From a virus (Duplodnaviria; Caudoviricetes), in IMG/VR virus record IMGVR_UViG_3300037991_004971, positions 1 to 62,672 of that record: 62,672 bases of DNA. One strand, given 5' to 3'. Shown piece by piece: positions 2,366 to 41,296 of this stretch. The notes under the pieces were generated by a model, which was not told where the DNA came from, did no database searches, and saw only the letters and a program-made list of their open reading frames with translations. The translations under genes were made by a program, and so were the position numbers. Position 1 is the first letter of the stretch. Every line of letters begins with the position of its first letter.

Positions 2366-2530
2366 TTACTCGTCATCATCATAATCATAGGTCAACCTAC
2401 TATCCCAAAATTCATCATCCCACTCTGGTTCATACAATGGACAAGGCTCTTCAAATAAATGTCCAATCCTTAATTGATGGATTCTTTCTCTTAGGGATTT
2501 GTAAAACTCTCTCTTTTCGTCTGAGTTCAT
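2366..2530 (-). CDS. Small acidic hypothetical protein (54 aa)
   Basis: Manual translation MNSDEKREFYKSLRERIHQLRIGHLFEEPCPLYEPEWDDEFWDSRLTYDYDDDE; ATGA overlap with the upstream gene. Confidence 0.7.
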   Translation of the reverse strand: MNSDEKREFYKSLRERIHQLRIGHLFEEPCPLYEPEWDDEFWDSRLTYDYDDDE

Positions 2531-2703
2531 TTACCTTTGATTACCTTTTCTAATTGTTTGCGTGTTTTGGCGGACCTTTCTTTTTCGCGTTCAGTATGTT
2601 TGTAACCATACTTTCCAGAACTAATAAAGTATCCTTGACAAATCATAGTAACTCCAAAAAGTAATGCTAAAACAACACTAATCCACTCCAGAGTATTATC
2701 CAT
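2527..2703 (-). CDS. Small single-TM membrane protein (58 aa)
   Basis: MDNTLEWISVVLALLFGVTMICQGYFI plus a basic tail. The ATG at 2703, just after the zwf stop, is preferred to the track start at 2727. Confidence 0.7.
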   Translation of the reverse strand: MDNTLEWISVVLALLFGVTMICQGYFISSGKYGYKHTEREKERSAKTRKQLEKVIKGK

Positions 2704-2708
2704 GGGTT

Positions 2709-4055
2709 TTATGCAGGAAAATCCCAACTAGTAATCTTTTCAACTTTAGTTATTGGACCCCAAGATCCAGAGTTATACCTATATGGAATAGTATTAATAG
2801 GACATTCCTCACCAGTGCAAAGAAGGTCTTCTACAATTCTCCAGGACTCCATGACTTCGTCTGAGTGTACAAAGTGCGATTGATTACCAAATATAGCATC
2901 ATAAAGGAGTTTCTCATATCCATCGATTGCTCTTTCCTGCGGATAATTGTGGGTGAGAGTGGCGAGTTCCAATTGATCTGATAGCCCTGGGGACTTAATA
3001 TCCATCCTAATGTCAAGATGAGGGTTAGGCTGTAAGCGCATAACAATGCGGTCTTTAGTTTCTCCATCATATAATTGTAGAGGTGGTGATTTAAGTTTGA
3101 TGACTACTTCTACACATTGGTATGGCATTTTCTTGCCAGTCATTACACGAAAAGGAACTCCCTCCCAACGCCAGTTATCGACATAAAGAGAACCAGCAAC
3201 GAAGGTAGGAGTGCGACTGTAAGGATCAACACCCTCCTCATTATTATATTCTTCGTATTGTCCACAGACCAAATCCTCCCCTAGACGAGTAGCAGCAAGA
3301 ACTTTTGTTTTTTCTCTACGAACTTCCTTAGCATTCATTTTGCTAGGAGGTTCCATCGCAATAAGTGCAAGAACCTGTAAGATATGATTCTGCAACATAT
3401 CTCTAACTGCACCAGCAGTTTCATAATATTGAGAACGACCTTCGCAACCAATAGTTTCGGTTGCATAGATTTGAATCTCTTCTATGTAATTGCGGTTCCA
3501 TAGAGGTTCCAGCAAAATATTACTAAACCGAGTAGCAAGTATGCTATTAACAGTATCTTTGCCAAGATAATGGTCAATGCGATATACCTGTTTCTCGCGT
3601 AAATGTCTCCCAACCACTGACTGTAAATGATTAGCAGATTGATAATCGTGCCCAAAGGGTTTTTCAATAACCACACGGGATGTTTCTGCGTCATTTAATC
3701 TACCTGTTTTTTTAAGGTTGACAATTGCATTTTCATATCTTTCTGGAGGTACAGATAAGAAATAAGTTACATCATCATGTTCTGGTAGATTTTGTAATGT
3801 ATCAATATTAGATAAATCTGCACATTGATAATCCAAATGCCAAAGAAATTCTTCGGGATAATCACCCAAAGATTGTTTCCATTGTTCTGCTGTTGGTTCT
3901 CTCCTAGCAGCACCAGTAATAGTGAAGTTTTCTGGGAGAAGTCCTTTCTCCCAGAGTTTATGGAGAGCAGGTATTAGTTTTCTTTTACACAGATCTCCAG
4001 TGGCACCAAAAATAACTATACCCTTGGTATTAGTGGGCACATCCGTTTCCGTCAT
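2709..4055 (-). CDS. zwf: Glucose-6-phosphate 1-dehydrogenase (auxiliary metabolic gene)
   Basis: GATGDL Rossmann motif, EKPFG, RIDHYLGK active-site peptide, RDMLQNH. Start is uncertain (4055, 4079 or 4100). Confidence 0.98.
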   Translation of the reverse strand: MTETDVPTNTKGIVIFGATGDLCKRKLIPALHKLWEKGLLPENFTITGAARREPTAEQWKQSLGDYPEEFLWHLDYQCADLSNIDTLQNLPEHDDVTYFLSVPPERYENAIVNLKKTGRLNDAETSRVVIEKPFGHDYQSANHLQSVVGRHLREKQVYRIDHYLGKDTVNSILATRFSNILLEPLWNRNYIEEIQIYATETIGCEGRSQYYETAGAVRDMLQNHILQVLALIAMEPPSKMNAKEVRREKTKVLAATRLGEDLVCGQYEEYNNEEGVDPYSRTPTFVAGSLYVDNWRWEGVPFRVMTGKKMPYQCVEVVIKLKSPPLQLYDGETKDRIVMRLQPNPHLDIRMDIKSPGLSDQLELATLTHNYPQERAIDGYEKLLYDAIFGNQSHFVHSDEVMESWRIVEDLLCTGEECPINTIPYRYNSGSWGPITKVEKITSWDFPA

Positions 4056-4158
4056 ACTTGTCGCTATCGTAGTATACATTTTCACCTCTCCTAATTCCAA
4101 AGTATATGGTAGTTAGTACAAATGGTATTGCTATCCATTTAAGAACATCAGCGAACAT
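4030..4158 (-). CDS. ndhP: NdhP-like small subunit of cyanobacterial NDH-1L (42 aa); not in the ORF track
   Basis: MFADVLKWIAIPFVLTTIYFGIRRGENVYYDSDKYDGNGCAH: one TM helix, then FG...YYDSDxYxGNGxAH, matching the NdhP/Sml0013 C-terminal signature as I recall it (FGT.NGFYD.D.YHGNGSAH). Overlaps the gnd end and the zwf start. Confidence 0.88.
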   Translation of the reverse strand: MFADVLKWIAIPFVLTTIYFGIRRGENVYYDSDKYDGNGCAH

Positions 4159-5200
4159 CGTGACCCCCAAACATCGCTCTCATACCATTTAAAACCTTGG
4201 CTGCGAAAGCACCCAGACGGCGCGACTCAAAGCGCGACCACAAAGCACTAGAGATGACAGGAGAGGGTACGCCAAGATCCACAGCAGCGTGAACAGTCCA
4301 ACGCCCTTCACCAGAGTCTGATACTCCGCCATCGAATTTGCTAAGCTCTCTATCACCCCGTAGAACATCAGCGGTAAGATCGAGCAACCAACTACCAACC
4401 ACAGAACCACGACGCCATAACTCAGCCACTTCAGCGCAGTCAATATCATACTGATAATCTTCTGGATTCTCCATAGGAGCAACCTCAGCATCGCCCGCTT
4501 TAATGTAAGCTGACCCAGCATTAGCTTCATGCAGGATATTAAAGCCTTCGGCGTAGGCTTGCATGATTCCATACTCTACTCCGTTATGAACCATCTTTAC
4601 AAAGTGACCTGCACCTGGTGGTCCACAATGCAACCAACCATACTCAGCACTTGTTGCCCTTGTTGTTGGATCAGTTCTTGGTGCTGAACCAATCCCTGGT
4701 GCGAGTGCCCTAAAGATTGGAGCGCAGGTGGATACTGCAGTATTTGCACCACCAACCATAAGACAGTATCCACGCTCCAAACCGTAAACACCACCACTAG
4801 TACCGCAGTCAATATACGCGATGCCAAGTTTAGATAGCCGTTCTGCTCTGCGTCGAGAGTCCTTAAAATTGCTATTGCCATGATCAATAATAATATCGCC
4901 TTCCACACAAAGTGGTAATAGCTCATTGATAGTCTCCTCTACTAATTCTGCGGGGATGACAAGTTGGAAAATACCTGGTGCATTTAGATTCTCATCTTTA
5001 GTAAAAACACTTGCTTGTTTTCTTACTACTTGAACAAGGCTTTCCAAAGAATCTGCAGCTGCAGTAATATACCCACTCTTTGCTGCTTCTTGTGCCTTTG
5101 CATAGTTTCTACGATATCCATATACTTCAATACCTTCTTTAAGCATACGGCGAGACATTCCCTCACCCATACGCCCAAGACCAATCATTCCTACTTTCAT
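4148..5200 (-). CDS. gnd: 6-phosphogluconate dehydrogenase, short form (auxiliary metabolic gene)
   Basis: IGLGRMG, DCGTSGG, GHFVKMVHNGVEYG, DSGEGRW, C-terminal FGGH. Confidence 0.98.
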   Translation of the reverse strand: MKVGMIGLGRMGEGMSRRMLKEGIEVYGYRRNYAKAQEAAKSGYITAAADSLESLVQVVRKQASVFTKDENLNAPGIFQLVIPAELVEETINELLPLCVEGDIIIDHGNSNFKDSRRRAERLSKLGIAYIDCGTSGGVYGLERGYCLMVGGANTAVSTCAPIFRALAPGIGSAPRTDPTTRATSAEYGWLHCGPPGAGHFVKMVHNGVEYGIMQAYAEGFNILHEANAGSAYIKAGDAEVAPMENPEDYQYDIDCAEVAELWRRGSVVGSWLLDLTADVLRGDRELSKFDGGVSDSGEGRWTVHAAVDLGVPSPVISSALWSRFESRRLGAFAAKVLNGMRAMFGGHDVR

Positions 5201-5367
5201 AGCACCCTCCCAGGAATATAATCAACTTCTTCTAGTACTTCATTGAGAAGCAATTCATAATCTTTAAACATTCTGTCACCTGCTATAAAGCATCTTTGGC
5301 GTCTCCAGAGTGCTTCAGCAAGCATTCTCCGTTCTCTTTCAGTAAAATCTTGGAATCTTTTATCCAT
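5197..5367 (-). CDS. Small hypothetical protein (56 aa)
   Basis: Manual translation MDKRFQDFTERERRMLAEALWRRQRCFIAGDRMFKDYELLLNEVLEEVDYIPGRVL. It fills the gap exactly, overlaps the gnd start (ATGA) and carries the GGAGG RBS of gnd. Confidence 0.75.
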   Translation of the reverse strand: MDKRFQDFTERERRMLAEALWRRQRCFIAGDRMFKDYELLLNEVLEEVDYIPGRVL

Positions 5368-5603
5368 TAATTACTTACCTCTTTTTGAAAATAATCTGGT
5401 AGTGGACATCCTTTAAATTTGTCAATTTCATTTACTGACAATACAAACATAGTAACAAATCCGAGGCAGAATGCGAAAAGCATTTGAGGAAAATTATAGT
5501 TCCCCATATAAGCAGTAGGATCAGGTTCATCATCGTGAGGATGAATCATTCTTGAAATCTTTTCTACTTCTTTCTTTCGTTCTTCCTCGGATTTCTTTTT
5601 CAT
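5367..5603 (-). CDS. Single-TM hypothetical protein (78 aa)
   Basis: Hydrophobic segment MLFAFCLGFVTMFVLSV; abuts both neighbours. Confidence 0.75.
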   Translation of the reverse strand: MKKKSEEERKKEVEKISRMIHPHDDEPDPTAYMGNYNFPQMLFAFCLGFVTMFVLSVNEIDKFKGCPLPDYFQKEVSN

Positions 5604-5604
5604 G

Positions 5605-5688
5605 TTAACCTCGGTATCTACCAGGCCATGATAATTGCATTGCAGAAATTAACAACAACATGTAGACAAATACGAACAATGTTGTCAT
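5605..5688 (-). CDS. Hydrophobic microprotein (27 aa)
   Basis: MTTLFVFVYMLLLISAMQLSWPGRYRG; its 3' end supplies the GAGG RBS for the next gene. Confidence 0.55.
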   Translation of the reverse strand: MTTLFVFVYMLLLISAMQLSWPGRYRG

Positions 5689-5741
5689 ATCAACACAATC
5701 GTTTTTAATTAACTAAAGTATATATTACTATGCATTTTTTA

Positions 5742-6392
5742 TTATTCTCTTTCTTGTGCTGTTTTCCAGAAATAACTTTCTTGATCTCCTAGACCCATAC
5801 GATCATATCCATTCTCAACCTGATAATACTCAGTAGATACTTTAAAATCAGGAATTTTTGGATTCTCTGGAGTTAAACTATTATCATAAATCCGAGTTCT
5901 ATTATTTGGATAAAGAGCATATTGCCCATTGACCAATTCAATCAGATTGTGTGACTTATGTTCTGCTGGATTCTCTGAAGTTGCATAGTCAACTGTATCA
6001 GGATCTTGATGATAATTATCAATGGTACAAATGTAAGTACCTTTCATAGTTCCATGATCTCTGGTGTAGACCTCATAATCCATACCACCAATAAACTGTT
6101 TAGTTACAGCAACTACACCATAATCCATACAGTTCCAGAACTGAAGATTCTGCAAACTCATATCAGGATCTGGTTTCTTCGGTTCAGATAAAAATGCACT
6201 GATAGGTAGTTTATCGTACATTGCAGCATACTCTGGAAGGTAGGTTTCAAAATAAAATGCCCTTCCAGGAATCGACTTAGCCGAAACCCAGACACCTTTT
6301 ACATATTCACCCCAACCAGACTGATGATCGGTTAGATATTCTTTCCGTACCCAAACTTCAACTGAGGGTAGATTACAAATTAAAGCAGCCAT
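5742..6392 (-). CDS. Conserved phage hypothetical protein (216 aa)
   Basis: Long ORF starting 3 nt after the ndhD stop; MAALICNLP...YDKLPISAF...LQFWNC...HKSHN...YPNNR, a family of unknown function. Confidence 0.85.
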   Translation of the reverse strand: MAALICNLPSVEVWVRKEYLTDHQSGWGEYVKGVWVSAKSIPGRAFYFETYLPEYAAMYDKLPISAFLSEPKKPDPDMSLQNLQFWNCMDYGVVAVTKQFIGGMDYEVYTRDHGTMKGTYICTIDNYHQDPDTVDYATSENPAEHKSHNLIELVNGQYALYPNNRTRIYDNSLTPENPKIPDFKVSTEYYQVENGYDRMGLGDQESYFWKTAQERE

Positions 6393-6395
6393 ATT

Positions 6396-7931
6396 TTATA
6401 CTGTAGGTGGTGTAAATGAATGAACTAAATGTGGACGAACTAGTGCTGCTTTATCGCGAGCAACTAGAGCATCAATTGAACTTTTGTATGTATCAGACAT
6501 AATTCTGGGATATAGTCCAATAGCAATAATGGGAACAAGTAGAGCACTCACAATGTAAACTTCACGAGGCTCTGCATCTACTAAATTGGTATGGGAAACA
6601 AGTTCTTTGTTCGGAGAACCATAAAAAATCTCACGCAACATAGAAAGCAAATAAATTGGAGTAAGAATAACCCCAATTGCTGCAATAGCACACATCGTTA
6701 TACGGAATGAAAGTGCATATACCGTATCAGTTGCAAATCCAGCAAAGACCATCAACTCACTCACAAATCCACTCATTCCAGGAAGTGCTAGTGATGCCAT
6801 AGAACACATTGTCCAAAGTGCAAACATAACTTTCATGTTTTGACCGACACCACCCATCTCATCCAACTGAAGAGTATGAGTTCTATCATAGGTAGCACCC
6901 ACTAGGAAGAATAGTGATGCACCAATCAGACCATGACTAATCATCTGAAGCATTGCACCACTCGTTCCGAGAGCACTATAACTACCGATGCCAATGAGAA
7001 CAAATCCCATATGACTGATTGAACTATAAGCAATCTTTCGTTTAAGATTCCTCTGTGCAAATGATGTCAATGCTGCATAAATGATATTTACAGCACCTAA
7101 TACAATAAGGATAGGTGCAAATATCTTATGTGCTTCTGGAAGAAGTTGACAGTTAAATCGCAGGAGAGCATATCCACCCATCTTGAGTAGAATACCTGCC
7201 AACAGCATGTGAACTGGTGCTGTTGCCTCTCCATGGGCATCAGGCAACCAGGTATGGAATGGAACGATTGGTAGTTTAACACCAAAAGCAATTAAGAATG
7301 CTGCATAGCACCAAATCTGAAAGTTCTCTGGAAACCCTTGTTGCTGCAGATAAGTGTATTCAAAATTAGCAGTACCAGTCCAGAATCCCATTGCTAGGGC
7401 AGCAAGAAGAATGAATAGGGAACTACCTGCAGTATAGAGAATAAATTTTGTTGCTGCATATTGGCGCTTCTTACCACCCCAAATAGCAATCATCATGTAG
7501 ACGGGAATAAGTTCTAATTCCCAGGATAGGAAGAACAAGATAAGATCCTGTACTGCAAAGACCATAATCTGTCCACCATCCATCAGAAGAAGAAAAAAGT
7601 AAAACAGTTTTGGTTTGAATGTAACTGGCCAAGCAGCAAGTGCTGCCAAACTTGTAATAAAACTAGAAAGTAAAATGAGAGGCATTGAAAGTCCATCAGC
7701 ACCTACAGACCAGGTAAGACCTAGTTGTGGAACCCATGAATATCTTTCTGCCATTTGCAGACCACTAATATCAGGATCATATCCATTCAAATATCCTGCT
7801 ACTGTGATTAAAAAAGTAATTAGAGTAACGCCAAGTGAATACCACTTGACTACTTTGTTTCCCTCAGGAAGAAAAAAGATTCCAACTGCACATACAATCG
7901 GAAACAATATAGCAAGACTCAACCAAGGCAT
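6396..7931 (-). CDS. ndhD: NAD(P)H-quinone oxidoreductase subunit 4 (NdhD1/D2-type antiporter-like NDH-1 subunit)
   Basis: 511 aa with about 14 TM helices; FFLSWELELIP, KLPIVPFHTWLPDAHGEA, LLKMGGY, IAYSSISHMG, LALPGMSGFVSE. The N-terminus resembles picocyanobacterial NdhD1. Confidence 0.97.
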   Translation of the reverse strand: MPWLSLAILFPIVCAVGIFFLPEGNKVVKWYSLGVTLITFLITVAGYLNGYDPDISGLQMAERYSWVPQLGLTWSVGADGLSMPLILLSSFITSLAALAAWPVTFKPKLFYFFLLLMDGGQIMVFAVQDLILFFLSWELELIPVYMMIAIWGGKKRQYAATKFILYTAGSSLFILLAALAMGFWTGTANFEYTYLQQQGFPENFQIWCYAAFLIAFGVKLPIVPFHTWLPDAHGEATAPVHMLLAGILLKMGGYALLRFNCQLLPEAHKIFAPILIVLGAVNIIYAALTSFAQRNLKRKIAYSSISHMGFVLIGIGSYSALGTSGAMLQMISHGLIGASLFFLVGATYDRTHTLQLDEMGGVGQNMKVMFALWTMCSMASLALPGMSGFVSELMVFAGFATDTVYALSFRITMCAIAAIGVILTPIYLLSMLREIFYGSPNKELVSHTNLVDAEPREVYIVSALLVPIIAIGLYPRIMSDTYKSSIDALVARDKAALVRPHLVHSFTPPTV

Positions 7932-7953
7932 ATTATAACAATAGAGTCAATAT

Positions 7954-7982
7954 ATTTTAACATAAAAAAAGAGGGGTTGCAA
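7954..7982 (-). promoter_or_regulatory. Sigma70-type early promoter for ndhD; its -35 lies inside the upstream hairpin
   Basis: Minus strand TTGCAA-N17-TAAAAT with a TG extension, about 22 nt upstream of the ndhD ATG. Confidence 0.6.
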
Positions 7983-8006
7983 CTGGATTTTGCCAGTTGC
8001 CCCCTC
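7964..8006 (-). terminator. Rho-independent terminator / long stem-loop
   Basis: GAGGGGGCAACTGG-CAAAAT-CCAGTTGCAACCCCTC followed by T7. Confidence 0.8.
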
Positions 8007-8033
8007 GCGGCGACGATATTCAGTTTTATTTAT

Positions 8034-8153
8034 TTACCAAGGAATTAATTCGTCAGGTTTGTCTTCGATTGGAATTGCTACTGGTTTAGGTGTAAGTGCA
8101 TATGCTCCGAAAGCTGATGCTGCGATTGTTGCAAAAATTGCTAGTATTGCCAT
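8034..8153 (-). CDS. Single-TM microprotein (39 aa)
   Basis: MAILAIFATIAASAFGAYALTPKPVAIPIEDKPDELIPW, translated manually. Confidence 0.6.
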   Translation of the reverse strand: MAILAIFATIAASAFGAYALTPKPVAIPIEDKPDELIPW

Positions 8154-8370: not shown

Positions 8371-8805
8371 TTAAAGATAATCTTTCCTTTGATGATGTTC
8401 TGGGACAATTTTACCTAGGTCAACGACTAGTAACCCATCCTCAAAAGAAACTGATCGAACTTCCGTTTCATCACTGAGGGTCCAGCACCGTGTGAAAGAT
8501 CGCTGAGCCATTCCTCTATGAACATAATCTCCGATTTCGTCAGAGTCCTCCTTTTGCCCTTCGATGAAGAGCTTTCCATCTTGTGTGTAGACATTTACTT
8601 CTTTCCTCTTAAATCCTGCCAATGCTAGTTCCAAGCGATACTCTATATTACTCAGCTGGACTAGATTGTATGGAGGATAATTTGTGCTGCTCTCATGAAG
8701 AGTCTGAATTCGGTTGAAATAATCTTCCATACCGATACTGTGCCTATTTATACGGTCCATCAATGCAGGCAGGTCCGTACTATGAAACTTCATTAAGTTT
8801 CCCAT
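8371..8805 (-). CDS. hsp20: Small heat shock protein Hsp20 (IbpA-like)
   Basis: YPPYNL...LELALAGF...HRGMAQRSFTR...FEDGLL alpha-crystallin domain. GGAG RBS precedes the ATG at 8805. Confidence 0.96.
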   Translation of the reverse strand: MGNLMKFHSTDLPALMDRINRHSIGMEDYFNRIQTLHESSTNYPPYNLVQLSNIEYRLELALAGFKRKEVNVYTQDGKLFIEGQKEDSDEIGDYVHRGMAQRSFTRCWTLSDETEVRSVSFEDGLLVVDLGKIVPEHHQRKDYL

Positions 8806-8872
8806 GGTTATTAGCTCCTTATAAAGCGAGTTTGTATTGTGTGATCCCCGAAGGCAATCACATATATTTATA
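8806..8872 (-). promoter_or_regulatory. hsp20 late promoter (TATAAATA) and structured 5' UTR with a ROSE-like SD-sequestering hairpin
   Basis: TATAAATA at 8865-72; cUUCGg-capped hairpin at 8841-61; CUCGCUU-UAU-AAGGAG hairpin at 8815-30. Confidence 0.65.
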
Positions 8873-8883
8873 GCACATGACAT

Positions 8884-8914: not shown

Positions 8915-9355
8915 TTATTCTGTTACTTCTGTTTTCTTTTTCTTGGCACCAATATTATACTTGGTTTCAAGAATCCAATCACCTTTATCTTTATAAGATA
9001 AAACTTTAATCTGATTCAAAGGAGCAATGTCTTGAATCTTATCCGCATTCACAATACCAACTAACCCCCAGTCCGCGAGAAGTTGAGCAATACGATTACG
9101 ACGCTGAACATCGTTAGTAGTAAGATTAGCATGTTTGCCATCTAAAGCAAATAGTTCTTTAAAATGAACTAAGAAATATCTACCCTGTTTGTGTAGAATA
9201 TGACAGGACTGATAAATCTTTTTCTCTTTGCGAGAAGCAACACCAATTCTTGTTAGAGTTTCTCTGACCTTAAGAAAATCATCTGGTTCGTTAAGAGTAA
9301 CTTCAACCATCTTGTCAGGTGCCCATTTAACTTCGGGCTCTTTGACCACACTCAT
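8915..9355 (-). CDS. regA: Translational repressor RegA
   Basis: PDDFLKVRETLTRIGVAS...QSCHILHKQGRY..VHFKEL. Confidence 0.97.
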   Translation of the reverse strand: MSVVKEPEVKWAPDKMVEVTLNEPDDFLKVRETLTRIGVASRKEKKIYQSCHILHKQGRYFLVHFKELFALDGKHANLTTNDVQRRNRIAQLLADWGLVGIVNADKIQDIAPLNQIKVLSYKDKGDWILETKYNIGAKKKKTEVTE

Positions 9356-38935: not shown

Positions 38936-40579
38936 TTACATGTAGTCCCACATGTATGATTTGTCCCCATATTCATCCAAATGCCATACATCACCATCTT
39001 TATCAGTAAATGATCCATTATCTAGACCATCGTTTATAAAACCAAATGGTGCCATATCTTGTTCTATTTGATCTCTCTGTTCTTCATATATTCTCTTTCT
39101 GACATCTTGGTCAGACATTTCTTTAAAATAATCCTGGCATACTAACCAAGCAAAAATAACAAGGCACATTGCCAAGTCATCATTACAACCATCTTCCGCT
39201 TCAAATGAGTTTGCTTTCTGTGCAAAAGTAGTTAATTCTGAAATTATTTCATAATCACATGTAAGTAACTTATCATCTTCCAGTAAAGTTTTTAGATTGG
39301 AACAACCCAACTTTTTGACTGCAGCAGTCATTCTTACACCAAGTTGTGTTTTCTTTCCTGAGAAACCTTGACCAACAATTTGACCATTACGACCTCTCAT
39401 CGACGCCATCAACAAGTTCTCATATTCCAAATCATATTGAAGAATACTAGCAACTTGATCACCAATATCATTTACCTCAATAAGAAGGTATGCATTATTG
39501 TATGCCTTTGCCATATCCAAAATAATATTTGGAAATAGCATGGGTTTGATTTCATTATTCCTATACTTTGCGACTATATTATATGGGAACTCTGTTGTGT
39601 CAAAAACAACAAATGCAGAGTAATCGTTCCCAAGACCACGCGCCACATCAACTGTTATGATATAGTTGTGATCTTTTATTGGTTCAAGATAAATGTCTAA
39701 TCCAGCATTCCTAGTTCTAGGTGAATCATAAACAAGATTTCTAAGTTTTGCTGGATTAATTAGAGTATTGACTGATCCTAAGAATTCACACTCAAACTCA
39801 ATTTTAAACTGTTGTTCTGAAGTGTTAGCAATAGTTTGCTCTTTCCACTCTTCATCTCTTCCTGGTACTTCGGACCAGTGGACATCTGTTGGTACATATT
39901 CACTTTTACCTTTCTCCGCATCATGCCACATGCGGTAGAAATGATTCATACCCCTAGGGGTAGAAACAATAATTACTTTTGTGCTTTGTCCAGACGTAAT
40001 AGTAGGATAAACAGAGGCAAAGAAGTCATCAGCAATGTGATTCGGGATGAACGCGAACTCGTCAAGAAAGATGACATTATAGGAGCCACCTCGGACAGCA
40101 GATGAAGATGTAGAGTTTGCTGAAATTTTACTCCCATTTTCTAATTCAAGAGATCCTTTGTTCCAAGATATAATACCTTGTTGCATCCACTTTGGCAAGT
40201 TTTCGTATGCAAGCTGTAACCTACCTAAAAGATCACGGGCAGTAGATGCTTTGTTTGCTAGGACTGCGATGTTAACATTATCGTTAAAAACAGCGTAGTG
40301 AAGAAGATATGATATACAAGTAGTTGACTTACCAGTCTGGCGAGGCATCTTGCATATATTAAATCTATTATCATGGAAATTCCTGATTAAGCGTTCTTGG
40401 AACTCATACATGTTGAAGGGTACTAGACCCTCATCAAGTGAAACGATTTTAATATACTTACGGGCAAAGTAAACAGGATCATCCTTACACTTCAAGAATT
40501 CAAGGACATTCTCCTTTGTAAATTCAATCTGTGTGTTTGCTTTTTTTAGATTAGGATTACCGAGATATACTTCACCCAT
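38936..40579 (-). CDS. gp17: Terminase large subunit gp17
   Basis: YLGNPNLK, PRQTGKS, FLDEFAF, VSTP.G, DVARG, DDLAM. Confidence 0.98.
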   Translation of the reverse strand: MGEVYLGNPNLKKANTQIEFTKENVLEFLKCKDDPVYFARKYIKIVSLDEGLVPFNMYEFQERLIRNFHDNRFNICKMPRQTGKSTTCISYLLHYAVFNDNVNIAVLANKASTARDLLGRLQLAYENLPKWMQQGIISWNKGSLELENGSKISANSTSSSAVRGGSYNVIFLDEFAFIPNHIADDFFASVYPTITSGQSTKVIIVSTPRGMNHFYRMWHDAEKGKSEYVPTDVHWSEVPGRDEEWKEQTIANTSEQQFKIEFECEFLGSVNTLINPAKLRNLVYDSPRTRNAGLDIYLEPIKDHNYIITVDVARGLGNDYSAFVVFDTTEFPYNIVAKYRNNEIKPMLFPNIILDMAKAYNNAYLLIEVNDIGDQVASILQYDLEYENLLMASMRGRNGQIVGQGFSGKKTQLGVRMTAAVKKLGCSNLKTLLEDDKLLTCDYEIISELTTFAQKANSFEAEDGCNDDLAMCLVIFAWLVCQDYFKEMSDQDVRKRIYEEQRDQIEQDMAPFGFINDGLDNGSFTDKDGDVWHLDEYGDKSYMWDYM

Positions 40580-40586
40580 AATATTT

Positions 40587-40766
40587 TCAAATAGATTTTA
40601 ATACTGTTTTACCGATAGCAGATAAGATATACGAATCTTTCATTGCGAGTTTTGTTGCAATCGCCCACTTGACATTTTTGTCTCCGTAGCGATCTTTCAT
40701 GTCTTTATCACTGATTGCATCAGCGATTTCATCGCGTTTCTTTTTCTGCTTTTTTGTCATACTCAT
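40587..40766 (-). CDS. Small basic hypothetical protein (59 aa)
   Basis: MSMTKKQKKKRDEIADAISDKDMKDRYGDKNVKWAIATKLAMKDSYILSAIGKTVLKSI. Confidence 0.65.
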   Translation of the reverse strand: MSMTKKQKKKRDEIADAISDKDMKDRYGDKNVKWAIATKLAMKDSYILSAIGKTVLKSI

Positions 40767-40840
40767 TTTTTGCAGTCACCTTCAAGGCACTTGCAGGGGT
40801 CGCAACCACAAACGGGACAAGAAGTTCTTTTCTTTTTCAT
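40763..40840 (-). CDS. Cys-rich microprotein (25 aa, 6 Cys)
   Basis: MKKKRTSCPVCGCDPCKCLEGDCKK; starts 6 nt after the gp16 stop and overlaps the next ORF (ATGA). Confidence 0.55.
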   Translation of the reverse strand: MKKKRTSCPVCGCDPCKCLEGDCKK

Positions 40841-40846
40841 TGGATT

Positions 40847-41296
40847 CTACTCAGGGTTGTTGTTATTATTTAGAATCCCCTCTTTAAGCATCTTTGATAA
40901 TTCTGATGTTGATCCTACAAACAATGCATTGTTAGTAACAGTGTTTGGACCCTTCTTAGTATTGTCCTCATCTAAATCTTTCAGTTTTTTCTGAAGATCT
41001 GCTAGTTTATCAGTTGTATCTGCAACTGATTTAATTAATTGACCAGCAACTTCATATGCTCTTGGACTTGCACTTTCTCCAGCAAGTTCCATGATTCCAT
41101 TGATTGCTTCTTGCCCTTTTTCAATTAATGAATATAATTGACCTCTAGTATAACGATAATCTTTTTCAATATCTTCCGAAATATTTACTGGAGGTAACTC
41201 CTTCTTTTTAATAGGTGCAGGTTTTACTGGCTGCACCTCTATTTCAGCAGGTACTGTATTAAAAGTATCATTCAACTCATCATAATTATCTTTCAT
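40847..41296 (-). CDS. gp16: Terminase small subunit gp16
   Basis: DY.YTR.QLY.LIEKG.EA...SPRAYEVAGQLIK...NNALFVGST.EL. Confidence 0.95.
   Translation of the reverse strand: MKDNYDELNDTFNTVPAEIEVQPVKPAPIKKKELPPVNISEDIEKDYRYTRGQLYSLIEKGQEAINGIMELAGESASPRAYEVAGQLIKSVADTTDKLADLQKKLKDLDEDNTKKGPNTVTNNALFVGSTSELSKMLKEGILNNNNNPE

What the first reader, a model, noticed from the sequence alone, without database searches (positions are those of the whole stretch)
2709..7982. Phage NDH-1L plus oxidative pentose phosphate module: NdhD and a hidden NdhP interlocked with gnd and zwf
Seen in the sequence: one co-oriented, tightly coupled run behind a sigma70-like promoter, ndhD -> 216-aa ORF -> microproteins -> gnd -> 42-aa ORF (4030-4158) -> zwf. 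The 42-aa ORF is missing from the ORF track. It overlaps the gnd stop by 11 nt and the zwf start by at least 26 nt, and ends YYDSDKYDGNGCAH. Established knowledge: that C-terminus is the NdhP signature. NdhP is a single-helix subunit specific to the respiratory/cyclic NDH-1L complex, where it packs against NdhD1 and stabilises it. Gnd and Zwf generate NADPH. Inference: the phage encodes an interacting NdhD-NdhP pair to remodel the distal proton-pumping arm of host NDH-1, co-expressed with the NADPH supply, which would drive respiratory or cyclic electron flow for ATP during infection (for example in the dark). As far as I recall, ndhD and ndhP homologues have each been noted in cyanophage sequences; the co-located four-gene module is the notable part.
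Basis: partly seen in the sequence, partly recalled or inferred. Interest (0 to 1): 0.88.

Follow-up and report, generated by a model that had tools for sequence, protein, structure and literature searches.

The report
Cyanophage ndhD beside gnd–ndhP–zwf cassette
A marine cyanophage carries copies of two subunits of its host's NDH-1 electron-transport complex next to two sugar-oxidising enzymes; the genes are real, but the tiny one (ndhP) proves to be a common, mostly unannotated phage gene, and the four-gene neighbourhood is peculiar to this one phage lineage.

Summary
On the minus strand of this T4-like cyanomyovirus contig lies a tight run: ndhD, a 216-aa ORF, three small ORFs, gnd, a 42-aa ORF and zwf. 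The 42-aa ORF is NdhP. It matches the solved Thermosynechococcus NdhP (E 1e-4 alone, 1e-10 as a profile) and host Synechococcus NdhP, and its codons show purifying selection. NdhD is the NdhD1 type, not D3/D4.

The interpretation needs correcting. NdhP wedged at the gnd/zwf junction is a general feature of cyanomyoviruses. It occurs in 78 of 78 testable IMG/VR gnd loci and in 395 phage records, more than carry gnd (181) or zwf (78). It is almost never annotated. ndhD is rare: 3 isolates and 29 IMG/VR loci. It travels as its own terminator-promoter-gene cassette, normally between sHsp and DUF6561 genes.

Only 1 of 27 testable IMG/VR ndhD loci has gnd-ndhP-zwf downstream, and that contig carries this same gene run at 98-100% protein identity. 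A sibling contig has the same layout minus ndhD.

Most likely function: the phage resupplies NDH-1L distal-arm subunits to sustain cyclic or respiratory electron flow. Phage ndhD and ndhP are both already in print.

The parts
7971..8006 (-). GC-rich hairpin followed by a T-run (7970-7964). It looks like an intrinsic terminator closing the upstream sHsp/small-ORF unit.
   Evidence: -27.2 kcal/mol, z -3.13, 0 of 200 shuffles fold as well. An equivalent hairpin plus T-run lies upstream of ndhD in all 26 sequences printed.
7954..7982 (-). Sigma70-like promoter with an extended -10 (TG-n-TAAAAT). The -35-like TTGCAA lies in the 3' arm of the hairpin.
   Evidence: 9 of 12 matches, TG present. An extended -10 at the same place is conserved in 26 of 26 ndhD upstream regions. 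The region is identical in the ndhD-less sibling L057, where it precedes the 216-aa ORF. Function is inferred, not shown.
6396..7931 (-). ndhD, NDH-1 subunit 4 of the NdhD1 type (511 aa).
   Evidence: NCBIfam NF002713: 929.5 bits against a cut-off of 827. PDB: T. elongatus NdhD1 6hum_D 743.5 bits against NdhD3 6tjv_D 286.6 bits. In the tree it sits in a phage clade (27 rows, support 100*) beside the marine Synechococcus/Prochlorococcus paralog that is 75-80% identical.
5742..6392 (-). 216-aa conserved cyanophage protein of unknown function.
   Evidence: phrog_3704, E 2.8e-113, labelled 'ferredoxin'. No Pfam or NCBIfam hit. 2050 relatives, the few named ones called 'hypothetical protein'. Only 3 Cys in the sequence, of which one is in the invariant list, so the ferredoxin label is unsupported. 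The AF2 model is poor, mean pLDDT 50.1.
5605..5688 (-). 27-aa hydrophobic micro-ORF.
   Evidence: Relatives lie near gnd cassettes in other loci. No PDB or family hit.
5367..5603 (-). 78-aa small ORF (phrog_16669, unknown function).
   Evidence: It changes place around gnd-ndhP-zwf in other loci.
5197..5367 (-). 56-aa small ORF (phrog_2064, unknown function). It overlaps the gnd start by 4 nt.
4148..5200 (-). gnd, short-type 6-phosphogluconate dehydrogenase (350 aa).
   Evidence: NF007161 380 bits against a cut-off of 271; TIGR00872 334.9 against 297.2. Pfam NAD_binding_2 and 6PGD.
4030..4158 (-). ndhP, 42-aa single-helix subunit P of NDH-1L. It overlaps gnd by 11 nt and zwf by 26 nt (or 50 nt).
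   Evidence: PDB NdhP 6khi_P: E 1e-4, and 1e-10 as a profile. Host Synechococcus NdhP: E 4e-7 to 1.5e-5. phrog_2173 'unknown function', E 1.1e-25. Codon-position entropies 0.28/0.15/1.04 in the zwf overlap and 0.74/0.43/1.06 outside it.
2709..4055 (-). zwf, glucose-6-phosphate dehydrogenase. Likely start is ATG 4055; alternatives are ATG 4079 and TTG 4100.
   Evidence: TIGR00871 443.7 bits against a cut-off of 400.6. Pfam G6PD_N and G6PD_C. Start-codon comparison.
2366..2727 (-). Two further small ORFs (66 aa, phrog_1953; 54 aa, phrog_2505) that continue the overlapping run after zwf.
   Evidence: The same pair follows zwf in the sibling L057.

Best explanation
The window is part of a T4-like cyanomyovirus genome. 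Two separate host-derived units happen to lie side by side in the variable island between regA/sHsp and the DUF6561/DNA-polymerase genes.

Unit 1 is a self-contained ndhD cassette: terminator hairpin, extended -10 promoter, gene. It encodes a conservative copy of the picocyanobacterial NdhD1-type antiporter-like subunit.

Unit 2 is the widespread cyanophage gnd-ndhP-zwf cassette. In it the 42-aa NdhP gene is wedged, by overlapping frames, between the two pentose-phosphate dehydrogenase genes.

Inferred mechanism: during infection the phage resupplies two parts of the NDH-1L-specific distal membrane arm. These are NdhD and the small subunit NdhP, which in the solved complex touches NdhD and NdhF and without which NDH-1L does not form. 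The ferredoxin:plastoquinone oxidoreductase therefore keeps working after host gene expression fails. This sustains cyclic flow around PSI and respiratory flow, and hence ATP supply. Gnd and Zwf meanwhile raise NADPH, which can reach NDH-1 only through FNR and ferredoxin.

Shown here: gene identities, purifying selection, distribution, cassette structure.

Inferred: expression, incorporation into the host complex, physiological effect.

The ndhD/gnd-ndhP-zwf adjacency is a lineage-specific juxtaposition, not a conserved operon. In this phage, however, the genes are probably read from the ndhD promoter as one transcript.
For: Identity:
- Curated cut-offs are passed by ndhD, gnd and zwf.
- NdhP matches PDB NdhP and host NdhP.
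- NdhD scores 743.5 bits on NdhD1 and 286.6 on NdhD3.
- The host paralog that is 75-80% identical to it is best matched by the same model, NF002713. The 50-53% and 36-41% paralogs are best matched by NF009212 and NF005060.

Conservative copy:
- There are only 9 near-fixed phage-versus-host differences in 511 positions. All are conservative and none falls in the predicted NdhP interface.
- E138, K219, K250, H307, H333 and E392 are invariant in a 25-row alignment.

Selection on NdhP:
- Codon-position entropies are 0.28/0.15/1.04 inside the zwf overlap.
- An intact ORF is retained in S-RIM2 and ACG-2014d, where zwf is gone.

Distribution:
- NdhP ORF in 395 phage records, all cyanophage or marine virus.
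- 78 of 78 gnd loci with at least 130 nt downstream have it. In 60 it abuts gnd, and in 73 zwf starts at its end.
- ndhD in 3 isolates and 29 IMG/VR loci.
- Phage NdhDs form one clade, support 100*.

Cassette:
- Hairpin, T-run and extended -10 lie upstream of ndhD in 26 of 26 sequences, across at least three gene contexts.

Juxtaposition:
- 1 of 27 IMG/VR ndhD loci with at least 700 nt downstream has the gnd cassette.
- L057 has the same layout without ndhD and keeps about 20 nt matching the ndhD 3' end.
- DNA contigs of other runs bridge both ndhD junctions with 0 differences (X1 records 5 and 8).

Binding:
- Complex prediction score 0.67, best control 0.00. That mark was reached by 58 of 80 solved complexes and 2 of 110 mismatched pairs. 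Runs agree in at least 63% of contacts, and the partner's pLDDT is at least 62. My own alignments were used, so the counts hold only roughly. A like complex is solved (6KHI and others), so the pass may be from memory.

Established knowledge:
- NdhP and NdhQ sandwich NdhD and contact NdhD and NdhF (PMC6992706 passages).
- NdhP is found only in NDH-1L and is needed for it (PMC4131877 abstract).
Against: - There is no expression or protein evidence for this phage.
- The only RNA-library contig of any length over the region is a 92%-identical relative that lacks ndhD, and an RNA library can hold DNA.
- Phage NdhP differs from host NdhP. It has a shorter N-terminus and a 3-residue insertion before the YY motif. 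The window's copy has Cys where 63 of 64 unique relatives have Thr. Altered or even antagonistic function is therefore not excluded.
- No ndhF is seen in the 62.7-kb record (searches cover its larger ORFs), so the phage NdhD must pair with host NdhF1.
- NDH-1L takes electrons from ferredoxin, not NADPH, so the link to Gnd/Zwf is indirect.
- The complex pass may only reflect resemblance to solved NDH-1L.
Confidence: 0.6

Rival explanations
1. ndhD, ndhP, gnd and zwf form one selected four-gene module. A co-adapted phage NdhD-NdhP pair remodels the distal arm, and the NADPH made next door fuels it.
For: The genes are co-oriented and overlapping, with no hairpin in the 53-nt gap. A single conserved promoter lies upstream. 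The phage NdhD/NdhP model passes: score 0.67, best control 0.00, with the caveats given. All 3 isolates with ndhD also have ndhP.
Against: Adjacency is found in 1 of 27 testable IMG/VR ndhD loci, a contig carrying this same gene run. The genes are about 80 kb apart in S-8S56 and S-8S53 and are ORF157 versus ORF226 in S-SCSM2R. At least 392 of 395 NdhP-bearing records have no ndhD, so NdhP must work with host NdhD. No fixed phage-specific change lies in the predicted NdhD/NdhP interface. A sibling has lost ndhD from the same layout. NDH-1 uses ferredoxin, not NADPH.
Confidence: 0.12
2. Phage NdhP is an antagonist or modifier. Its 3-residue insertion and trimmed N-terminus would let it occupy the NdhP site but destabilise or re-tune NDH-1L. 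Reductant from Gnd/Zwf would then be kept for nucleotide synthesis rather than burnt in respiration.
For: The insertion after the RKG motif is present in all 31 phage rows and in none of the 3 host rows of alignment A4. ndhP is linked to NADPH-producing genes in 73 of 78 loci. It is far more common than ndhD.
Against: The C-terminal motif shared with functional NdhP is under strong purifying selection. Some phages also add an intact, conservative NdhD1, which makes little sense if the aim were to disable NDH-1L. In Syn9 and S-8S56 the cassette sits beside a plastoquinol terminal oxidase gene, in Syn9 also plastocyanin, and in S-RIM2 it sits near plastocyanin. That neighbourhood points to more electron flow, not less.
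Confidence: 0.12
3. The 42-aa frame is not translated. It would be a by-product of the gnd/zwf junction or a decaying remnant.
For: It is unannotated in most GenBank records. It has no Pfam or NCBIfam model hit.
Against: The third-position variation pattern fits its own frame, even where it overlaps zwf. It is found in 78 of 78 loci. It is retained intact where zwf is lost and where it lies far from gnd. It matches NdhP of a solved complex.
Confidence: 0.03

Closest known systems
Synechococcus phage S-SCSM2R (PQ898602; BMC Biol 2025, PMC12801897)
   Same: A T4-like cyanomyovirus with both ndhD (86% aa identity to the window's) and ndhP, plus gnd and zwf. ndhD lies behind regA-sHsp with the same hairpin/extended -10 cassette.
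   Different: There ndhD is followed by DUF6561 genes and the DNA polymerase. ndhP, gnd and zwf lie elsewhere: ORF226 against ORF157. In the window the gnd-ndhP-zwf block sits directly after ndhD.
gnd-zwf cassette of Syn9 and other cyanomyoviruses
   Same: The order is gnd, hidden 42-43-aa NdhP ORF, zwf, with overlapping frames.
   Different: In Syn9 the cassette lies between g16 and g17, beside plastocyanin and PTOX genes. In the window g16 and g17 are adjacent, and the cassette lies in the regA-DUF6561 island next to ndhD.
NdhP of Prochlorococcus phage P-TIM68 (annotated 'putative NADH dehydrogenase subunit P')
   Same: A small single-helix NdhP homologue carried by a cyanomyovirus.
   Different: The P-TIM68 copy lacks the 3-residue insertion, carries a short C-terminal extension and sits after nrdB. 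It is 50% identical to the window's.
Cyanobacterial NDH-1L subunits NdhD1 and NdhP (Thermosynechococcus, PDB 6HUM/6KHI/6NBY)
   Same: NdhD aligns over residues 2-497 at 743.5 bits with the conserved transmembrane motifs. NdhP aligns over the helix and the C-terminal motif.
   Different: These are phage-encoded copies. NdhP has a shorter N-terminus and a 3-residue insertion relative to the T. elongatus and host copies. Incorporation into a complex has not been tested.
Metagenomic cyanophage NDH-1 genes (ndhD, ndhI, ndhP; Sharon 2009/2011, Philosof 2011)
   Same: The idea that cyanophages carry NDH-1 subunits to boost cyclic flow is already in print. I saw it only as cited in PMC3877843, PMC3903132 and PMC10452541.
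   Different: I could not read the primary papers (not held). I therefore cannot say whether they noted the gnd/zwf position of ndhP.

Membership tests
NdhP (subunit P of cyanobacterial NDH-1L) | Sequence similarity to NdhP chains of solved NDH-1L complexes | tested here: met
   phmmer against 6khi_P gives E 1e-4, and against 6hum_P 5e-4. These were the only 2 hits at E up to 10. A profile of 31 phage and 3 host rows gives 1e-10.
NdhP (subunit P of cyanobacterial NDH-1L) | About 40-50 aa, with one hydrophobic helix followed by the conserved C-terminal ..FG..G..Y..D.Y.GNG.AH end | tested here: met
   G21, G25, Y29, Y30, G37, N38, G39, A41 and H42 are invariant across 34 phage and host rows.
NdhP (subunit P of cyanobacterial NDH-1L) | Homology to the NdhP gene of the likely hosts | tested here: met
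   One hit in each of 3 of 3 marine Synechococcus genomes, E 4e-7 to 1.5e-5. Host ORFs of 40-47 aa have the same C-terminus.
NdhP (subunit P of cyanobacterial NDH-1L) | A curated family model (Pfam/NCBIfam) is matched | tested here: inconclusive
   No hit in Pfam or NCBIfam at E up to 0.1. I do not know whether either library holds an NdhP model. PHROGs places the ORF in phrog_2173, 'unknown function'.
NdhP (subunit P of cyanobacterial NDH-1L) | Sits against NdhD1/NdhF1 in NDH-1L and is needed for its stability | not testable with these tools
   Only a model: score 0.67, best control 0.00; the mark was reached by 58 of 80 solved and 2 of 110 mismatched pairs; contacts agree at 63% or more; partner pLDDT is 62 or more; my own alignments were used; a like complex is solved, so the pass may be memory.
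NdhD1/D2-type NDH-1 subunit 4 (NCBIfam NF002713) | Score above the curated cut-off of the subfamily model, and above the D3/D4-type models | tested here: met
   NF002713 scores 929.5 against a cut-off of 827. NF005060 and NF005611 score 387 and 375, below their cut-offs of 747 and 764.
NdhD1/D2-type NDH-1 subunit 4 (NCBIfam NF002713) | Groups with NdhD1 rather than the CO2-uptake paralogs | tested here: met
   PDB NdhD1 743.5 bits against NdhD3 286.6 bits. In the tree the phage clade lies inside the clade of the host paralog that is 75-80% identical, support 98*, away from the 50-53% and 36-41% paralogs. It is a FastTree run, and only one D3/D4-like row served as outgroup.
NdhD1/D2-type NDH-1 subunit 4 (NCBIfam NF002713) | Conserved charged residues of the antiporter-like proton path (TM5 Glu, TM7/TM8 Lys, TM12 Glu) | tested here: met
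   E138, K219, K250 and E392 (with H307 and H333) are invariant in 25 phage and host rows and identical in the T. elongatus alignment. Which residue plays which role is recalled from complex I literature, not from a call.
Co-transcribed operon ndhD..zwf | One promoter, no internal terminator, and a transcript spanning the genes | tested here: inconclusive
   There is a promoter-like site and an upstream terminator. The genes overlap or are close, and the 53-nt gap has no hairpin (z 0.04). No raw RNA reads were available, and contigs cannot show a transcript.
Gnd / Zwf (oxidative pentose phosphate dehydrogenases) | Scores above curated equivalog or subfamily cut-offs | tested here: met
   zwf: TIGR00871 443.7 against 400.6. 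gnd: NF007161 380 against 271, and TIGR00872 334.9 against 297.2.

The most novel reading that the evidence does not exclude
gnd-ndhP-zwf is an old, translationally coupled three-gene unit of cyanomyoviruses. Within it NdhP, not ndhD or ndhI, is the main way phages act on NDH-1. NdhP is present in about 395 sequenced phage genomes, which is more than carry gnd or zwf. It is retained when zwf is lost, and it is almost entirely missing from annotation.

The phage form, with its fixed 3-residue insertion, would be a virus-specific NDH-1L subunit. It would couple sugar oxidation to NDH-1L-dependent respiration or cyclic flow during infection.

The window's lineage would then be the fullest version, adding a phage NdhD1 on the same transcript.
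Probability: 0.3. Interest if true: 0.65.

Novelty: new member of a known kind. Interest (0 to 1): 0.42.

Why it matters
Cyanophage metabolic genes shape a large part of ocean photosynthesis during infection. Two practical points follow.

First, NdhP is far commoner in cyanophages than current annotation suggests. It is also commoner than a 2025 paper states: that paper calls it 'uncommon', previously found only in P-TIM68 (passage seen). Surveys of viral photosynthesis genes therefore undercount NDH-1.

Second, NdhP is constantly wedged between the two NADPH-forming dehydrogenase genes. That gives a concrete, testable link between phage-driven sugar oxidation and NDH-1L-dependent electron flow.

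The ndhD-plus-cassette layout of this contig and its ndhD-less sibling form a natural pair. Comparing them could show what a phage NdhD adds.

Tried and rejected
Function of the 216-aa ORF:
- Pfam and NCBIfam gave nothing.
- The AF2 model on a 35-row alignment reached only mean pLDDT 50.1, so no fold search was run.
- The protein atlas gave no usable hit.

Small ORFs s39, s34 and the 27-aa ORF, tested against the PDB as possible NdhQ or photosystem subunits: 0 hits each at E up to 10.

RNA evidence:
- One search for runs and one laying of contigs.
- The metatranscriptome run X17 holds only small or divergent pieces. Parts of ndhD and zwf have no cover there, which proves nothing.
- Contigs cannot show a transcript, its ends or its level.
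- The joint 6409->7940 in X17 is a relative without ndhD, not splicing.

Promoter scan: the count of promoter-like sites does not exceed shuffles, 22 against 20.1. I rely on conservation instead. Most terminator-like sites inside genes have 3-4 GC pairs, and I set them aside as chance.

ATG 4079 as the zwf start, which the PHROG profile suggested: rejected as the general start because it is ATA in 39 of 67 relatives.

Other steps that led nowhere:
I used gnd as the query instead.
- Papers not held: Schwarz 2013, Philosof 2011, Nowaczyk 2011, Sharon 2011, Zhang 2014.

Full report
**What is there**

The window is a whole 62,672-base virus record. It carries T4-like cyanomyovirus genes on the minus strand:
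- baseplate, neck and terminase genes (g16 at 40847-41296, g17 at 38936-40579);
- sheath, tube, portal, scaffold and major head protein;
- UvsY, a helicase, the late sigma factor, sliding clamp and clamp loader;
- regA at 8915-9355 and an Hsp20-type sHsp at 8371-8883.

The finding's run follows on the same strand. The order is: ndhD 7931..6396; a 216-aa ORF 6392..5742; ORFs of 27, 78 and 56 aa; gnd 5200..4148; a 42-aa ORF 4158..4030; zwf ending at 2709; then two more overlapping small ORFs down to 2366.

This covers the 11-nt overlap with the gnd stop, the overlap of at least 26 nt with zwf, and the C-terminal ...YYDSDKYDGNGCAH.

**Gene identities**

ndhD, gnd and zwf pass curated NCBIfam cut-offs:

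| Gene | Model | Score | Cut-off |
|---|---|---|---|
| ndhD | NF002713 | 929.5 | 827 |
| gnd | NF007161 | 380 | 271 |
| zwf | TIGR00871 | 443.7 | 400.6 |

Evidence that NdhD is the NdhD1 type:
- It scores 743.5 bits on Thermosynechococcus NdhD1 of solved NDH-1L, against 286.6 bits on NdhD3 of NDH-1MS.
- Three marine Synechococcus genomes each hold three paralogs, at 75-80%, 50-53% and 36-41% identity to it.
- In one of those genomes I scanned the three paralogs. Their best models are NF002713, NF009212 and NF005060 respectively.
- In a FastTree of 110 rows, the 27 phage NdhDs form one clade (support 100*). That clade sits inside the picocyanobacterial clade of the most similar paralog (98*).

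The residues I recall as the proton-path Glu/Lys set are E138, K219, K250 and E392. All are invariant in a 25-row alignment. Phage and host copies differ at only 9 near-fixed, conservative positions out of 511.

**The 42-aa ORF is NdhP and is a real gene**

- Alone it hits only the two NdhP sequences of the PDB, at E 1e-4 and 5e-4.
- A profile of 31 phage and 3 host rows hits them at 1e-10.
- It finds one ORF in each of three host genomes, at E 4e-7 to 1.5e-5. Those ORFs are 40-47 aa long and share the same ...FG..GG-YY.TD.YDGNGTAH end.
- Phage copies have a shorter N-terminus and a 3-residue insertion before the YY motif.

I compared 64 unique DNA versions. At the invariant residues, codon positions 1 and 2 never vary while position 3 varies freely. 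In a second set of 67 unique versions, mean entropies per codon position are 0.74/0.43/1.06 outside the zwf overlap and 0.28/0.15/1.04 inside it. That is the signature of a translated frame, and within the overlap it is the dominant frame.

The same comparison bears on the zwf start. ATG 4079 is ATA in 39 of 67 relatives, so zwf most likely starts at ATG 4055, giving a 26-nt overlap.

**Distribution changes the picture**

| Gene | Phage records with a tblastn match | Of these, cyanophage |
|---|---|---|
| NdhP | 395 (391 cover at least 80% of the query) | all named Synechococcus, Cyanophage, Prochlorococcus or Marine virus |
| gnd | 193 | 181 |
| zwf | 93 | 78 |

Annotation of the NdhP ORF in the rows listed:
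- Where it lies between gnd and zwf, it is usually not annotated.
- Elsewhere it lies under 'hypothetical protein'.
- Only P-TIM68 names it NdhP.

IMG/VR gave the same result. I took the best 80 of 592 gnd relatives, a set biased towards gnd genes 80-100% identical to the window's. All 78 loci with at least 130 nt after gnd have the ORF. In 60 it abuts or overlaps gnd, and in 73 zwf starts at its end.

In S-RIM2 and ACG-2014d an intact 43-aa NdhP ORF persists without zwf. It is hidden under an annotated 98-aa ORF in another frame.

So gnd-ndhP-zwf, or ndhP alone, is a common cyanophage feature that does not depend on ndhD.

**ndhD is rare and has its own home**

- tblastn finds it in three isolates, S-SCSM2R, S-8S56 and S-8S53, at 84-86% identity.
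- IMG/VR holds 29 loci at 84-100% identity.
- Of the 27 IMG/VR loci with at least 700 nt downstream, 23 have DUF6561-like genes right after ndhD and 3 have another context. Only L002 has the 216-aa ORF and the gnd cassette, and its gene run is 98-100% identical in protein to the window's.
- In the isolates, ndhD and ndhP lie far apart.
- Upstream of ndhD, all 26 sequences printed show a GC-rich hairpin, a T-run and an extended -10, whatever the neighbouring gene. In the window the hairpin folds at -27.2 kcal/mol, z -3.1.

ndhD therefore behaves as a self-contained terminator-promoter-gene cassette.

Contig L057 has the window's exact layout from sHsp to the small ORFs after zwf, but no ndhD. 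Its 216-aa protein shows no mismatch over the 215 residues aligned. The junction keeps about 20 nt matching the ndhD 3' end, which suggests that lineage deleted ndhD.

Metagenome contigs from other runs bridge both ndhD junctions without a difference. An RNA-library contig shows an ndhD-less relative. Fifteen runs from four studies hold at least half of the stretch's sampled words, and one of them may be the source sample.

In this phage g16 and g17 are adjacent, whereas Syn9 keeps petE-PTOX-gnd-zwf between them. The cassette therefore sits in a different island here. That placement is what brings it next to ndhD.

**Transcription**

The run has overlaps or gaps of at most 3 nt, apart from one 53-nt gap that has no stable hairpin (z 0.04). 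Read-through from the ndhD promoter is thus likely in this phage. It is not shown, because only contigs, not raw RNA reads, were available.

**Mechanism**

According to the solved structures, NdhP and NdhQ sandwich NdhD and contact both NdhD and NdhF (passages of PMC6992706). NdhP occurs only in NDH-1L, and NDH-1L is not detectable without it (abstract of PMC4131877).

A model of phage NdhD with phage NdhP passes its controls:
- score 0.67, best control 0.00;
- the mark was reached by 58 of 80 solved complexes and 2 of 110 mismatched pairs;
- runs agree in at least 63% of contacts, and the partner's pLDDT is at least 62;
- my own alignments were used, so the counts hold only roughly.

NDH-1L is solved, so this shows likeness, not binding.

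I infer that the phage resupplies distal-arm parts to keep NDH-1L working, much as phage psbA is thought to replace D1. This would sustain cyclic and respiratory electron flow for ATP. Because NDH-1 takes electrons from ferredoxin, NADPH from Gnd/Zwf can feed it only through FNR and ferredoxin. The PTOX and plastocyanin genes beside the cassette in Syn9, S-8S56 and S-RIM2 fit an electron-flow role. An antagonist role for the insertion-bearing phage NdhP is not excluded.

**Comparison with what is in print**

- Passages I read say that metagenomics suggested ndhI, ndhD and ndhP in cyanophages (PMC3877843; PMC10452541).
- They also say that viral NDH-1 subunits may enhance cyclic flow (PMC3903132).
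- One says NdhP has homologues in 'some cyanophages' (PMC6596454).
- PMC12801897 reports ndhD and ndhP in S-SCSM2R. It calls ndhD a first for a cyanophage genome and ndhP uncommon.

My searches were 'ndhP + cyanophage' (5 papers), 'ndhP + phage' (5) and 'ndhP + zwf' (3). I looked at passages in four of the papers found. None mentions the gnd/zwf position or the prevalence of ndhP.

The primary papers (Philosof 2011, Sharon 2011, Nowaczyk 2011, Schwarz 2013) are not held, and I saw no supplements. I therefore cannot claim the point is unpublished.

**Verdict**

The 'four-gene module' is a lineage-specific juxtaposition of two known kinds of cyanophage auxiliary genes. The most useful by-product is that ndhP is a widespread, largely unannotated cyanophage gene tied to gnd and zwf.

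Noticed in passing
L206:3492-3623 (S-RIM2 KX349230) and L208:3495-3626 (ACG-2014d KJ019032): An intact 43-aa NdhP ORF is unannotated. It is overlapped by an annotated 98-aa 'hypothetical protein' in another frame. The start of that protein resembles the zwf 5' region read in the zwf frame, and zwf itself is absent. The annotated ORF may be an artefact or a zwf remnant fused to other sequence.
   Followed up: partly
window 7932-8033, and upstream of ndhD in L001, L003-L027, L032: ndhD is always preceded by a GC-rich hairpin, a T-run, an extended -10 and a TTGAC-like element. This holds in 26 of 26 sequences and across at least three gene contexts. ndhD looks like a mobile terminator-promoter-gene cassette.
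   Followed up: partly
L057:1690-1815 compared with window 6380-6440 and 7930-8040: A sibling contig lacks ndhD but keeps about 20 nt matching its 3' end just before the 216-aa ORF. This suggests a clean deletion of about 1.5 kb. An RNA-library contig (X17 record 13) shows a similar ndhD-less form at about 92% identity.
   Followed up: yes
window 5742-6392 (-): The 216-aa protein is very abundant in marine metagenomes: 2050 relatives, and the best 120 listed are 73-97% identical. PHROGs labels its family 'ferredoxin', yet it has only 3 Cys and one invariant Cys, with no Pfam domain. Its function is unknown and the label is probably wrong.
   Followed up: partly
window 4039-4041 (-), NdhP residue 40: The window's NdhP has Cys in the GNG-x-AH end, where 63 of 64 unique relatives have Thr and the three host copies also have Thr.
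   Followed up: no
window 38936-41296 (-): g16 and g17 are adjacent here, about 270 nt apart. In Syn9, S-RIM2 and S-8S56 the gnd cassette with petE and/or PTOX lies just upstream of g17, and in Syn9 it lies between g16 and g17. The cassette has therefore moved between genomic islands.
   Followed up: partly
L034-L113 (IMG/VR gnd loci): The small ORFs flanking the cassette (27, 78, 56, 66 and 54 aa) recur in many different orders around gnd-ndhP-zwf: 43 different arrangements in 80 loci. They shuffle like small mobile gene units.
   Followed up: no
L039:4019-4171, L080:3998-4159, L207:3486-3629: A second phage NdhP form lacks the 3-residue insertion and carries a short C-terminal extension after ...GTAH. 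It is seen in two IMG/VR loci without an adjacent zwf and in P-TIM68.
   Followed up: no
A4 profile against PDB 9grx_4: The profile gives a weak match (E 0.27) to chloroplast PnsB4. This is in line with the 'weak similarity to plant proteins' mentioned in PMC6596454.
   Followed up: no
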